64,000 nt of DNA from Escherichia phage Ecwhy_1: the sequence record MH791411.1. One strand, 5' to 3'. Both the position numbers and the translations under genes were made by a program. Positions within the stretch are counted from its first letter, which is position 1. Each line of letters opens with the position of its first letter. Below the pieces are notes generated by a model. It was not told the DNA's origin and did no database searches. It was given only the letters and a program-made list of their open reading frames with translations. Below, in pieces: positions 59,169 to 60,284 of this stretch.

Positions 59169-60284
59169 TTAGAACATTTGCTTGATTGCTTCAATACGCA
59201 ATTCAGCAACAAAATCACGAATCTCCGATGTTTGGAGTTCACCATCTTTCACTAACTGCTGAATATCAGGTAATTCAACATCAGTATAACGATCATAAAC
59301 TTTAATAATCAAATCTTCAAGTTCAGAATCAATTTCTTTGTTCAAAATGAAGTTTTCCAGTACTTTGTAAAGGAAATCTTCACCACCATTGTTTTTGATA
59401 TTCATATCCAGTAAGATTTGTCCCATTTCAACTGGGGTCTTCTTACGGAAGGTTTTAATATCTTCACGGAAACGCTTGATGTAATTACTAAACTTAACGT
59501 ACTTAACTGGAACCTTAATGGAACCGTTAAGTACTGAATCATTATTTACTTCTTCATTTTCAAGAAGTACTGTCCATAAGAAATATGGTTTATATTCTTC
59601 TGTACAATTTGCAGCGATAGAATCAATTAATTCCAGACGTTTCTTGGTAACTGGAACTGTAGTAAATGCCTTTTCGTAATAACCAAATTGTACCAGAGTT
59701 TTGATAAACTTGGAAGGGTTTTCTTCAGAAAGTGCTTTTTCGAATTCAACAAAAACACGATCTGGAACTAGATGGTCTAGTTCACCAGTACTAACCATAT
59801 CTTTACACATTGTCATAGTATCATCATGGATTGTAAAGTCGGAGTAACGCGTAGCGAAACGGGCCAAACGTAGAACACGCAATGGATCTTCTTTAAAGTG
59901 TTCTGATACATGACGAAGTACTTTGTTCTTGATATCAGCTTTCCCGCCATAAGGGTCGATGTGAATCTGGAGTACTGGATCATATGCAATACTATTGATT
60001 GTGAGATCACGACGATATAGATCTTGTTCTAGTGTCACACCTTTTGTATTCACTTCGAAGCCACCATATCCAGTACCAGTTTTACGCTCAGTACGGGCTA
60101 ATGCGTGTTCATTACCTTCTGGACTTAGATATACAGGGAAATCCTTACCTACTTGCTTGTATCCAATACTTTGCAAGTATTTAATATCGGATTCGGTAGC
60201 ACCGACAATAACATAATCTTTGTCTTTTGCACGGATACCCATTAAACGGTCACGAACGTAGCCACCAACCAAATACTTTTTCAT
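59169..60284 (-). CDS. cca: tRNA nucleotidyltransferase (CCA-adding enzyme) lacking the HD domain
   Basis: N-terminus MKKYLVGGYVRDRLMG...DKDYV with ARTERK and RRDLTIN motifs, closely matching class II CCA enzymes; 371 aa, so no C-terminal HD phosphohydrolase region. Confidence 0.85.
   Translation of the reverse strand: MKKYLVGGYVRDRLMGIRAKDKDYVIVGATESDIKYLQSIGYKQVGKDFPVYLSPEGNEHALARTERKTGTGYGGFEVNTKGVTLEQDLYRRDLTINSIAYDPVLQIHIDPYGGKADIKNKVLRHVSEHFKEDPLRVLRLARFATRYSDFTIHDDTMTMCKDMVSTGELDHLVPDRVFVEFEKALSEENPSKFIKTLVQFGYYEKAFTTVPVTKKRLELIDSIAANCTEEYKPYFLWTVLLENEEVNNDSVLNGSIKVPVKYVKFSNYIKRFREDIKTFRKKTPVEMGQILLDMNIKNNGGEDFLYKVLENFILNKEIDSELEDLIIKVYDRYTDVELPDIQQLVKDGELQTSEIRDFVAELRIEAIKQMF

What the first reader, a model, noticed from the sequence alone, without database searches (positions are those of the whole stretch)
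59169..60284. CCA-adding enzyme without HD domain: possible tRNA 3'-end repair
The head domain is strongly conserved (GGYVRD, DKDYV, ARTERK, RRDLTIN) but the protein is ~40 aa shorter than E. coli CCA and lacks the HD phosphohydrolase region. Phage CCA enzymes are expected to maturate phage tRNAs or repair host tRNAs damaged by defence nucleases. Together with the HPF-like and possible PTH2-like genes, this block appears focused on the translation apparatus.
Basis: partly seen in the sequence, partly recalled or inferred. Interest (0 to 1): 0.55.

Follow-up and report, generated by a model that had tools for sequence, protein, structure and literature searches.

The report
Jumbo-phage CCA-adding enzyme lacking HD
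This gene encodes an already annotated jumbo-phage copy of the enzyme that builds the CCA end of tRNAs; it has lost the phosphatase module of the E. coli enzyme, and it most likely finishes the roughly half of the phage's own tRNAs whose genes do not encode CCA.

Summary
Window 59169-60284 (minus strand) is an intact 371-aa ORF. It has a class II tRNA nucleotidyltransferase head and neck that are 51% identical to E. coli Cca over residues 1-210. All catalytic and nucleotide-selecting motifs are present. There is no HD phosphohydrolase: Pfam finds none, and the last 164 residues contain no histidine.

The C-terminal half is not a truncation. It is a helical body/tail that aligns weakly but collinearly with the HD region of bacterial Cca, and the metal-ligand segments are excised.

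The window is about 98-99% identical to Escherichia phage Turkey3 (Asteriusvirus, RaK2-like jumbo phages). There the identical protein is already annotated as "CCA tRNA nucleotidyltransferase". The RaK2 homologue was described in 2013 as a putative CCA-adding enzyme for the phage's own tRNAs.

- Turkey3: 3 of 7 tRNA genes lack an encoded CCA.
- Phage G17: 4 of 7 lack it.
- RaK2: 4 of 8 lack it.

The most likely role is therefore tRNA maturation plus 3'-end maintenance. Counter-defence repair remains an untested add-on. The finding is ordinary and already known. Interest is low.

The parts
59169..60284 (-). Complete gene for a 371-aa class II tRNA nucleotidyltransferase (CCA-adding enzyme), stop codon included.
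   Evidence: ORF. PHROG 2244 full length, E 9e-117. 100% aa identity to Turkey3 XMR01184.1 'CCA tRNA nucleotidyltransferase'. AF2 model pLDDT 92.1, pTM 0.86. Foldseek best match is the T. maritima CCA-adding enzyme 3h38, TM 0.74, over the whole length.
59913..60275 (-). Head (catalytic Pol-beta-type nucleotidyltransferase) domain, aa 4-124. It carries motif A GGYVRD...DKD, motif B ARTERK, the flexible loop RKTGTGYGGF and motif C DLYRRDLTIN.
   Evidence: Pfam PF01743, E 5.7e-19. Motifs read from the sequence. Invariant residues G7 G8 R11 D12 D23 E66 Y73 R91 R92 D93 in alignment A1.
60216..60224 (-). Codons for the catalytic carboxylate motif DxD (D21-K22-D23).
   Evidence: Translates to DKD. 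Aligns to E. coli Cca D21/D23, whose D23A and D21A/D23A variants are inactive in vivo (PMC6468291).
59877..59891 (-). Codons for motif D, EDPLR (E132 D133 ... R136), the amino-acid 'template' that selects CTP and ATP.
   Evidence: Translates to EDPLR. E132, D133 and R136 are invariant in A1. Aligns to E. coli E130 D131 R134. The role of EDxxR is described in PMC6468291.
59664..59840 (-). Neck domain, aa 149-207.
   Evidence: Pfam PF12627 PolyA_pol_RNAbd, E 2.1e-9. Similarity to E. coli Cca ends at about aa 210.
59172..59663 (-). Body/tail region, aa 208-371. It is all-helical and appears to be a decayed counterpart of the HD-containing body of E. coli-type Cca. It has no histidines and no HD motif. 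It carries a family-specific conserved stretch, NNGGE-FLYK.
   Evidence: No Pfam HD hit. Zero His. hhalign of the phage C-terminal profile against the HD-Cca C-terminal profile: probability 72.7%, E 3e-5, 143 collinear columns, with a 19-residue gap exactly over HDLGK...HHGH. Helical with high confidence in the AF2 model.
62362..62694 (-). Context only: gene for an HPF/YfiA-like ribosome-associated protein (S30AE family), 110 aa.
   Evidence: Pfam PF02482, E 7.4e-11, 43.1 bits, above the cut-off of 23.7. Annotated 'ribosome-associated inhibitor A' in Turkey3. No evidence of a functional link to the cca gene beyond proximity.
56632..57009 (-). Context only: gene for a Pth2-like (peptidyl-tRNA hydrolase 2 fold) protein, 125 aa.
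   Evidence: The window copy has no Pfam hit of its own. However, 7 of 10 family members hit PF01981 PTH2, best E 5.6e-7. The AF2 model has pLDDT 69.9. The top 12 Foldseek PDB matches are all Pth2 enzymes, TM 0.5-0.66. Catalytic competence was not assessed.

Best explanation
The gene encodes an active class II CCA-adding enzyme (ATP(CTP):tRNA nucleotidyltransferase). It is carried by an Asteriusvirus-type (RaK2-like) jumbo coliphage.

The head and neck are essentially those of a gamma-proteobacterial Cca, and they do the template-independent chemistry. D21 and D23 hold the two metal ions. The EDxxR motif (E132, D133, R136) reads CTP and then ATP. The flexible loop, including Y73, is intact and supports the switch to A addition.

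The helical body/tail is predicted to hold the tRNA acceptor/T arm. It descends from the HD-containing body of bacterial Cca but has lost every metal ligand. The protein therefore has no 2',3'-cyclic phosphodiesterase or phosphatase activity and can only extend 3'-OH ends.

Its main job during infection is probably to complete the phage's own tRNAs. About half of the phage tRNA genes end in N73-C-AAA or similar instead of N73-CCA, and some lie 6-7 nt upstream of the next tRNA. Proposed pathway:
1. RNase P cuts the downstream tRNA free.
2. Host 3' exonucleases trim the A/U-rich trailer. RNase T stalls at C.
3. The phage enzyme adds the missing CA or CCA.

It would equally re-add A76 or CA lost through normal end turnover on host and phage tRNAs. 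That makes the phage independent of the low-abundance, non-essential host Cca.

What is shown and what is inferred:
- Shown: gene, fold, motif conservation, absence of HD, and CCA-less tRNA genes in near-identical and related genomes.
- Inferred: catalytic activity, CCA (rather than CC or A only) specificity, the trimming pathway, and the in vivo role.
For: Identity and fold:
- Pfam, NCBIfam and PHROG hits.
- 51% identity to E. coli Cca over aa 1-210, with only 1-3-residue indels.
- AF2 pLDDT 92.1, and full-length Foldseek matches to solved CCA-adding and A-adding enzymes, TM 0.66-0.74.

Catalytic and specificity residues:
- G7 G8 R11 D12 D23 E66 Y73 R91 R92 D93 E132 D133 R136 R139 R142 F143 are invariant across 32 homologues that go down to 37% identity.
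- These correspond to E. coli D21/D23, flexible-loop Y71 and motif-D R134, whose mutation impairs function (PMC6468291).

HD absent.

Substrates:
- Whole-genome ARAGORN scan of the about 98-99% identical phage Turkey3 finds 7 tRNAs, all confirmed by Rfam RF00005.
- Ser(ACU), Thr(UGU)#1 and Thr(UGU)#2 read N73-C-AAA. The other four read N73-CCA-AA(A/T).
- The pattern recurs in G17 (4 of 7) and in RaK2, a different genus (4 of 8).
- By contrast, all E. coli tRNA genes encode CCA, and RNase T is nearly inactive on C ends (PMC6468291).

Family and literature:
- More than 80 full-length homologues of 367-383 aa, many on 330-360 kb jumbo-phage contigs, all without HD.
- The same reading was published for RaK2 gp031 (PMC3622015) and for jumbo phages in general (PMC7824862).
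Against: - No biochemical data exist for this or any close phage homologue in the searchable literature.
- The host already has a Cca. The classical T4 precedent shows that CCA-less phage tRNAs can rely on the host enzyme, so the phage gene is not strictly required for maturation.
- The tRNA genes are not in this window. Their state is inferred from a 98-99% identical genome, not from the window's own genome.
- The body/tail, which in E. coli-type enzymes influences CCA versus poly(A) behaviour (recalled from the literature, not checked here), is highly diverged. It shows only a 73% hhalign probability to bacterial Cca. Strict CCA specificity is therefore inferred, not shown.
- Sequence alone cannot separate full CCA-adding from A-adding or CC-adding activity.
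Confidence: 0.75

Rival explanations
1. The enzyme acts primarily as counter-defence. It rebuilds CCA tails that host immune nucleases or toxins clip from host and phage tRNAs (Cas12a3-type RuvC nucleases, HEPN-MNT toxins, some Cas13 enzymes). It may work together with the phage's T4-like polynucleotide kinase/3'-phosphatase, which would heal 2',3'-cyclic-phosphate ends in place of the missing HD domain. This does not exclude the maturation role.
For: - tRNA-tail-cleaving immunity is now documented. [quoted passage not shown] See also BaCas12a3 (PMC13594972), RsCas13, and HEPN-MNT as cited in PMC12916289.
- Comparative genomics has already grouped jumbo-phage CCA-adding enzymes with RNA-repair genes (PMC7824862).
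- Turkey3 encodes a verified Pnkp (HAD_PNKP, E 1.7e-43) and an Rnl1-type RNA ligase.
- From general enzymology, RuvC-type cleavage is expected to leave a 3'-OH, which an HD-less enzyme can extend.
Against: - No experiment links any phage Cca to defence evasion.
- Cas12a3 cuts mainly 3-5 nt from the end in vitro, that is, at or beyond the discriminator. A canonical CCA-adding enzyme cannot restore N73 or stem nucleotides.
- Cas12a3 systems were described mainly in Bacteroidota and metagenomes, not in E. coli hosts of this phage.
- Loss of the HD end-healing module argues against specialisation for nuclease-damaged ends.
- The cca gene is about 50 kb from pnkp and rnl1.
- The presence of CCA-less phage tRNAs already explains why the gene is retained.
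Confidence: 0.2
2. The protein is not a CCA-adding enzyme in the strict sense. It is a related nucleotidyltransferase with altered specificity, because its C-terminal half has diverged: a poly(A) polymerase acting on mRNA or sRNA, or a partial-activity (A-adding or CC-adding) enzyme.
For: - The Pfam head domain is shared by poly(A) polymerases and CCA-adding enzymes.
- E. coli PAP I (3aql) is also a full-length structural match, TM 0.64.
- No NCBIfam equivalog cut-off is reached.
- The body/tail is too diverged for BLAST to align with E. coli Cca.
Against: - The PcnB models score only 91 bits (cut-off 306) and 51 bits (cut-off 702). The A-adding model scores 67 bits (cut-off 1440). The E. coli Cca model scores 281 bits on half the protein.
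- The head and neck are 51% identical to E. coli Cca, with the flexible loop and its Tyr intact and no loop deletion of the kind recalled for CC-adding enzymes.
- No G[RK][RK]F PAP-type signature is present. The signature was recalled from the literature.
- The C-terminal profile aligns collinearly with Cca.
- CCA-less tRNA substrates exist in the genome.
Confidence: 0.05

Closest known systems
RaK2-like jumbo-phage tRNA nucleotidyltransferases (PHROG 2244). Examples: Turkey3 XMR01184.1, PBECO4 and 121Q gp539, Klebsiella phage RaK2 gp031, Cronobacter phage GAP32.
   Same: Same family, and for Turkey3 the same protein: 100% aa identity to Turkey3, 87% to PBECO4 and G17, 67% to RaK2. Same length (367-377 aa), same head + neck + HD-less helical body/tail, and the same genomic neighbourhood (Nudix and glutaredoxin downstream).
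   Different: Nothing of substance. The window's nucleotide sequence differs by about 1-2% from Turkey3.
E. coli multifunctional CCA addition/repair protein Cca (b3056; NCBIfam NF008137 / PRK10885).
   Same: Head and neck are 51% identical over 210 aa. DxD, RTE, RRD(L)TIN and EDxxRxxRxxRF motifs and the flexible-loop Tyr sit at equivalent positions. The overall four-domain order is collinear.
   Different: The phage protein lacks the HD phosphohydrolase (E. coli residues 229-328). The segments carrying the His/Asp ligands are deleted and the C-terminal 164 aa have no His. It scores 281 bits, below the 451-bit cut-off. It should therefore lack the phosphatase, 2'-nucleotidase and 2',3'-cyclic phosphodiesterase activities known for E. 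coli Cca (established knowledge, not tested here).
HD-less short Cca homologues of 357-368 aa (P0085, P0092, P0116, P0120) and the short NCBIfam models PRK13296 and PRK13297 (360 and 364 positions).
   Same: Same domain content (head + neck, no Pfam HD) and similar length. In alignment A1 they have gaps at the same two HD-ligand segments. P0085 lies on a 1.36-Mb contig, which suggests a cellular genome.
   Different: Their C-terminal halves are not detectably closer to the phage family. The phage protein matches these models only over about 210 N-terminal positions. None of the tested proteins reaches those models' cut-offs either. Whether HD loss is shared or independent was not resolved.
Solved class II enzymes: T. 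maritima CCA-adding enzyme (3h37, 3h38, 5hc9), B. stearothermophilus CCA-adding enzyme (1miv), A. aeolicus A-adding enzyme (1vfg, 4wc2).
   Same: Same 'seahorse' head-neck-body-tail fold over the full length (TM 0.66-0.74). Conserved motifs A-D are visible in the pairwise alignment. These enzymes also work without HD phosphohydrolase chemistry (established knowledge).
   Different: Only 21-24% sequence identity. The phage head and neck belong to the proteobacterial Cca lineage.
Bacteriophage T4 tRNA maturation, in which host Cca completes CCA-less phage tRNAs.
   Same: Phage tRNA genes are clustered, some are closely spaced as dimers, and several lack an encoded CCA and so need post-transcriptional CCA addition. 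The T4 dependence on the host enzyme is the classical precedent (Deutscher, Foulds and McClain 1974, listed as a reference in PMC6468291).
   Different: T4 relies on the host enzyme. This phage group brings its own.

Membership tests
Class II tRNA nucleotidyltransferase (CCA-adding enzyme, Pol-beta superfamily) | Motif A: GGxVRD followed by the catalytic DxD carboxylates. | tested here: met
   GGYVRDRLMGIRAKDKD, with D21 and D23. G7 G8 R11 D12 D23 are invariant in 32 homologues, and position 21 is D or E. Equivalent to E. coli D21/D23.
Class II tRNA nucleotidyltransferase (CCA-adding enzyme, Pol-beta superfamily) | Motif B (RTE) and motif C (RRDxTIN) in the head domain. | tested here: met
   ARTERK at aa 63-68 and DLYRRDLTIN at aa 88-97. 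E66, R91, R92, D93, T95 and N97 are invariant.
Class II tRNA nucleotidyltransferase (CCA-adding enzyme, Pol-beta superfamily) | Motif D, EDxxRxxRxxRF, the nucleotide-selecting amino-acid template for CTP and ATP. | tested here: met
   FKEDPLRVLRLARF at aa 130-143. E132 D133 R136 R139 R142 F143 are invariant.
Class II tRNA nucleotidyltransferase (CCA-adding enzyme, Pol-beta superfamily) | Flexible loop retained, as needed for the C-to-A switch. It is recalled to be deleted in CC-adding enzymes. | tested here: met
   The loop RKTGTGYGGF is present, with Y73 invariant. There are only 1-residue indels relative to E. coli Cca in this region. E. coli Y71 in this loop affects catalytic efficiency.
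Class II tRNA nucleotidyltransferase (CCA-adding enzyme, Pol-beta superfamily) | Head-neck-body-tail architecture. | tested here: met
   AF2 pLDDT 92.1, pTM 0.86. Full-length Foldseek matches to 3h38, 5hc9, 1miv and 4wc2, TM 0.66-0.74.
Class II tRNA nucleotidyltransferase (CCA-adding enzyme, Pol-beta superfamily) | Template-independent addition of exactly C74-C75-A76 to tRNA. | not testable with these tools
   This needs an enzyme assay or delta-cca complementation. No published assay of a phage homologue was found.
Multifunctional CCA addition/repair protein (E. coli-type Cca, NCBIfam NF008137) | C-terminal HD metal-dependent phosphohydrolase domain (H...HD...H...D ligands). | tested here: not met
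   No PF01966 hit, whereas E. coli Cca gives HD at 229-328, E 2.4e-14, in the same scan. Zero His in aa 208-371. The ligand segments are deleted.
Multifunctional CCA addition/repair protein (E. coli-type Cca, NCBIfam NF008137) | Whole-protein score above the curated equivalog cut-off (451 bits). | tested here: not met
   281 bits, with only model positions 1-204 of 409 matched.
Poly(A) polymerase I (PcnB; TIGR01942 / NF008634) | Score above the curated cut-offs, plus PAP-specific C-terminal region and signature. | tested here: not met
   91.4 bits against a 305.65 cut-off, and 51.1 bits against 702. No G[RK][RK]F signature.
A-adding tRNA nucleotidyltransferase (NF041569) | Score above the curated cut-off. 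| tested here: not met
   67.2 bits against a cut-off of 1440.
PHROG 2244 (phage tRNA nucleotidyltransferase) | Full-length match to the family profile. | tested here: met
   E 9.1e-117, protein residues 1-370 against profile positions 3-387 of 392.

The most novel reading that the evidence does not exclude
Phage-encoded, HD-less CCA-adding enzymes are a counter-defence against immunity that clips tRNA 3' tails (Cas12a3, HEPN-MNT-type toxins, CCA-releasing Cas13). They would regenerate CCA on tRNAs that keep their discriminator base. The phage's Pnkp would heal cyclic-phosphate ends when needed. This would supply the 'yet unknown means of resistance' asked for in the Cas12a3 paper. It would also explain why many unrelated large phages carry a cca gene even though their hosts already have one.
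Probability: 0.15. Interest if true: 0.6.

Novelty: already known. Interest (0 to 1): 0.18.

Why it matters
It matters little as a discovery. The identical protein is already deposited and named. The family's likely role, maturation of the phage's own tRNAs alongside Pnkp/RNA-ligase repair genes and a Pth2, was proposed for RaK2 in 2013 and reviewed for jumbo phages in 2021.

This analysis adds three points:
1. The HD module was excised from within a retained helical scaffold. It was not removed by truncation.
2. Roughly half of the tRNA genes in three phages of the group lack an encoded CCA, typically ending N73-C followed by an A-rich trailer. This gives the enzyme an obvious substrate set.
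3. tRNA-tail-cleaving immunity has recently been discovered, so these phage enzymes are now a cheap and directly testable candidate for counter-defence.

Tried and rejected
- tRNA scan of the window: none found. The tRNA question therefore had to be answered from the near-identical Turkey3 genome, fetched in eight pieces.
- Rfam scan of the whole window at gathering thresholds: no RNA family.
- Promoter and terminator scan of 56.4-63.9 kb: counts at the shuffle expectation (39 against 36.2 +/- 6.0; 4 against 3.2). No claim is made about a dedicated promoter or terminator for the gene.
- BLASTP of the phage C-terminal half against E. coli Cca: nothing significant. Only the profile-profile comparison gave a weak collinear match.
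- PDB sequence search with the Pth2-like ORF: no meaningful hit. Pfam on that ORF alone: nothing. The link appeared only through family members and the predicted fold.
- Literature searches for a biochemically characterised phage CCA-adding enzyme, or for one acting as an anti-defence factor: none found. The T4 genome review (PMC150520) is not held.
- Considered and rejected:
  - Pseudogene or inactive relic: the catalytic residues are invariant across a deep family.
  - Poly(A) polymerase: the model scores are too low.
  - Simple C-terminal truncation as the cause of HD loss: the deletions are internal.
- Not attempted: a phylogeny to decide whether HD loss predates acquisition by phages.
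Full report
**1. What is at the coordinates**

Window 59169-60284 on the minus strand is an uninterrupted ATG-initiated ORF of 371 codons. Its start codon lies one base after the stop of a 40-codon upstream ORF and is preceded by GGGGGA. It sits inside a long array of co-directional genes. A consensus scan found promoter-like and terminator-like sites only at the frequency expected from shuffled sequence, so nothing can be said about its own regulation.

**2. Where the window comes from**

A 4-kb stretch around the gene is 99.5% identical to Escherichia phage Turkey3 (PQ471515.1, 361 kb). It is 84-98% identical to other Asteriusvirus jumbo coliphages such as PBECO4, 121Q and G17. 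Over the full 64 kb the window is 98.0-99.0% identical to Turkey3. It is therefore a very close relative, not necessarily the same isolate.

The encoded protein is 100% identical to Turkey3 XMR01184.1, annotated "CCA tRNA nucleotidyltransferase". It is 87% identical to the PBECO4 and G17 proteins, 67% to Klebsiella phage RaK2 and about 58% to the Erwinia and Yersinia jumbo-phage proteins.

A search of about 5.8 billion proteins returns more than 80 full-length homologues of 367-383 aa. Many sit on 330-360 kb contigs, and none has a Pfam HD domain.

**3. What the protein is**

Family matches:
- Pfam finds the nucleotidyltransferase head (PF01743, aa 4-124, E 5.7e-19) and the neck (PF12627, aa 149-207) and nothing else credible.
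- PHROG 2244, "tRNA nucleotidyltransferase", matches end to end (E 9e-117).
- The best NCBIfam model is the E. coli-type "multifunctional CCA addition/repair protein". Only its first 204 of 409 positions are matched, and the score of 281 bits is below the 451-bit cut-off.
- Poly(A) polymerase models score 91 and 51 bits, far below their cut-offs.

Direct comparison with E. coli K-12 Cca (412 aa, fetched) gives 51% identity over residues 1-210, with only 1-3-residue indels. No significant similarity follows after that point.

In a 32-sequence alignment reaching down to 37% identity, the following residues are invariant:
- G7, G8, R11, D12 and D23 (motif A).
- E66 (motif B).
- Y73 (flexible loop).
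- R91, R92 and D93 (motif C).
- E132, D133, R136, R139, R142 and F143 (motif D).

These correspond to E. coli D21/D23, Y71 and R134, whose replacement abolishes or weakens function in vivo (PMC6468291).

An AlphaFold2 model built on this alignment is confident (pLDDT 92.1, pTM 0.86). Over its whole length it matches solved class II enzymes:
- T. maritima CCA-adding enzyme, TM 0.74.
- B. stearothermophilus CCA-adding enzyme, TM 0.66.
- A. aeolicus A-adding enzyme, TM 0.66.
- E. coli poly(A) polymerase, TM 0.64.

Fold alone does not discriminate among these activities. The sequence scores do, and they favour Cca.

**4. The missing HD domain**

With the same Pfam scan, E. coli Cca shows HD at residues 229-328 (E 2.4e-14). 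So does a 413-aa bacterial homologue. The phage protein, four phage relatives and three short homologues do not. The phage protein's last 164 residues contain no histidine at all, so an H...HD...D metal site is impossible.

The loss is not a truncation. In the multiple alignment, two gaps in the phage protein of about 13 and 19 columns coincide with the bacterial segments ...HPEIDTGIH... and HDLGK...HHGH. The remaining helices line up.

A profile-profile comparison of the phage C-terminal family with the HD-type C-terminus gives a weak but collinear match. Probability is 72.7%, E is 3e-5, and 143 columns align, with the 19-residue gap exactly over the HD motif. I read this as a decayed HD scaffold kept for its structural, tRNA-binding role. 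At that probability it is an inference, not proof.

HD-less proteins of 357-368 aa with the same gaps also occur outside the jumbo-phage family. One lies on a 1.36-Mb contig. NCBIfam also holds short Cca models of 360 and 364 positions. Absence of HD is therefore not unusual.

**5.

The window has no tRNA gene. I fetched the whole Turkey3 genome. ARAGORN finds seven tRNAs, all at 292.7-297.2 kb. Rfam's tRNA model confirms all seven and places their 3' ends at the discriminator base.

Reading the DNA:
- Ser(UGA), Ser(GCU), Met(CAU) and Asn(GUU) continue N73-CCA-AA(A/T).
- Ser(ACU), Thr(UGU)#1 and Thr(UGU)#2 continue N73-C-AAA.
- Ser(ACU) lies 7 nt upstream of the Met tRNA, and Thr#1 lies 6 nt upstream of Thr#2.

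So three of seven need post-transcriptional CCA completion.

The same holds in phage G17: Gly(UCC), Ser(ACU), Asn(GUU) and Thr(UGU) lack CCA, 4 of 7. It also holds in RaK2, a different genus: Arg(UCU), Ser(GCU), Asn(GUU) and Thr(UGU), 4 of 8.

By contrast, all E. coli tRNA genes encode CCA (PMC6468291).

**6. Mechanism proposed**

Shown:
- An intact class II catalytic core of the Cca lineage.
- A full-length class II fold.
- No HD domain.
- CCA-less phage tRNA genes in near-identical and related genomes.

Inferred, step by step:
1. The clustered tRNAs are transcribed together.
2. RNase P releases the downstream members.
3. Host 3' exonucleases remove the A/U-rich trailers. RNase T prefers purine ends and is almost inactive on C, which fits the recurrent N73-C-AAA design.
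4. The phage enzyme adds the missing CA or CCA, and also replaces A76 lost by normal end turnover.

Without HD the enzyme can only use 3'-OH ends.

Host Cca exists, and in the classical T4 case it serves the phage (Deutscher, Foulds and McClain 1974, listed). The phage copy therefore probably provides capacity and independence rather than a unique activity.

**7. The repair and counter-defence reading**

Turkey3 also encodes a T4-like Pnkp (HAD_PNKP, E 1.7e-43) and an Rnl1-type RNA ligase. These are the classical anticodon-nuclease repair pair. Comparative genomics has grouped jumbo-phage CCA-adding enzymes with such repair genes (PMC7824862).

Since 2026, immune nucleases that clip tRNA 3' tails are known:
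- Cas12a3 (PMC12851939 and PMC13594972).
- A Cas13 that releases CCA.
- HEPN-MNT, as cited.

The Cas12a3 authors note that viral tRNAs cannot circumvent this mechanism and that other means of resistance are unknown. A phage Cca is an obvious candidate, but several points weigh against it:
- Cas12a3 mainly cuts 3-5 nt from the end, often removing the discriminator, which a canonical CCA-adding enzyme cannot restore.
- No experiment links phage Cca to defence.
- Loss of the end-healing HD domain argues against specialisation for damaged ends.

I keep this as the most novel reading that the evidence does not exclude, at about 15%.

**8. The "translation block"**

The HPF-like gene (62362-62694) is a real S30AE-family member (E 7.4e-11).

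The 125-aa ORF at 56632-57009 has no hit of its own. However, 7 of 10 family members match Pfam PTH2, best E 5.6e-7. Its model is of moderate confidence (pLDDT 69.9), and its top 12 PDB matches are all Pth2 enzymes. "PTH2-like" is therefore supported at fold level. RaK2's Pth2 was noted in 2013.

These three genes are spread over 6 kb among Nudix, glutaredoxin, macro-like, endolysin and unknown paralogous genes. The grouping is loose, and co-function is not shown.

**9. Comparison with what is known, and verdict**

The gene is a member of the RaK2-like jumbo-phage tRNA nucleotidyltransferase family (PHROG 2244). It is identical to a deposited, correctly named protein.

It meets every sequence and fold criterion of a class II CCA-adding enzyme that can be tested here. 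It fails the defining HD criterion of the E. coli "multifunctional" subtype. It also fails the PcnB and A-adding models.

Its proposed role was published for RaK2 gp031 (PMC3622015). Novelty: already known. Interest: low (0.18). The one forward-looking point is the cheap experimental test against tRNA-tail-cleaving immunity.

Noticed in passing
window 56632-57009 (-): A 125-aa ORF with no Pfam hit of its own belongs to a small jumbo-phage family. Seven of 10 members match Pfam PTH2. Its predicted fold (pLDDT 69.9) matches only archaeal/eukaryotic-type peptidyl-tRNA hydrolase 2 structures. Whether the catalytic residues are retained was not examined.
   Followed up: yes
window 57350-57829 (-): A 159-aa ORF with a weak Macro-domain match (E 0.003, below the cut-off) and a strong match to PHROG 335 'phosphatase' (E 1e-44). 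It could be an ADP-ribose or Appr-1''-p processing enzyme sitting between the Pth2-like gene and the cca gene.
   Followed up: partly
window 60286-62307 (-): Directly upstream of the cca gene there are duplicated small-gene modules. Two roughly 40-aa paralogues (60286-60408 and 61418-61543) are identical at 25 of 41 aligned positions and both end in ERLxDWLMGE. Two overlapping PHROG 20693 paralogues lie at 60420-60863 and 60829-61242. Two more unknown ORFs follow. Function is unknown.
   Followed up: partly
L007 46085-46176 (Turkey3 record 295585-295676); also L010 5651-5742 (G17): A tRNA-Ser with anticodon ACU (unmodified A34 would be unusual in bacteria). It is conserved in two Asteriusvirus genomes, lacks an encoded CCA, and lies 7 nt upstream of a tRNA-Met. 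It has the lowest Rfam score of the seven tRNAs (49.9 bits) but is above threshold.
   Followed up: no
L007 45499-46023 (Turkey3 record 294999-295523): An HNH homing endonuclease gene is inserted within the tRNA cluster. The tRNA complement differs between close relatives: Turkey3 has two Thr and no Arg or Gly, while G17 has Arg(UCU) and Gly(UCC). This suggests rapid turnover of the cluster.
   Followed up: no
L012 6488-6575, 6942-7017 and 8886-8963 (RaK2 JQ513383.1, about 176.5-179.0 kb): ARAGORN calls three tRNAs in RaK2 that are not annotated in the GenBank record: Leu(UAA), Gly(UCC) and Met(CAU), all with encoded CCA. ARAGORN does not call the two annotated pseudo-tRNAs.
   Followed up: partly
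L003 20426-21568 and 22391-23323 (Turkey3 record 70.3-73.2 kb): T4-like RNA ligase 1 and polynucleotide kinase/3'-phosphatase genes, both confirmed by Pfam. The phage therefore carries the classical tRNA anticodon-break repair pair about 50 kb from the cca gene.
   Followed up: partly
window 24441-25665 and 29366-30592: Each of these two stretches matches a second place at about 77% identity, in addition to its own 98-99% identical counterpart. In Turkey3 these places lie in two adjacent very large ORFs (4.9 and 5.7 kb, annotated hypothetical). This indicates an internal paralogous segment of about 1.2 kb shared by neighbouring giant genes.
   Followed up: no
L008 37698-50000 and L009 1-8100 (Turkey3 record about 337-357 kb): A run of about 20 tandem paralogous genes of roughly 1.1 kb each on the opposite strand. 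They are annotated 'E3 ubiquitin-protein ligase HERC1', 'regulator of chromosome condensation' or 'NS1A-binding protein', which probably reflects RCC1/kelch-type beta-propeller repeats. The array is outside the window.
   Followed up: no
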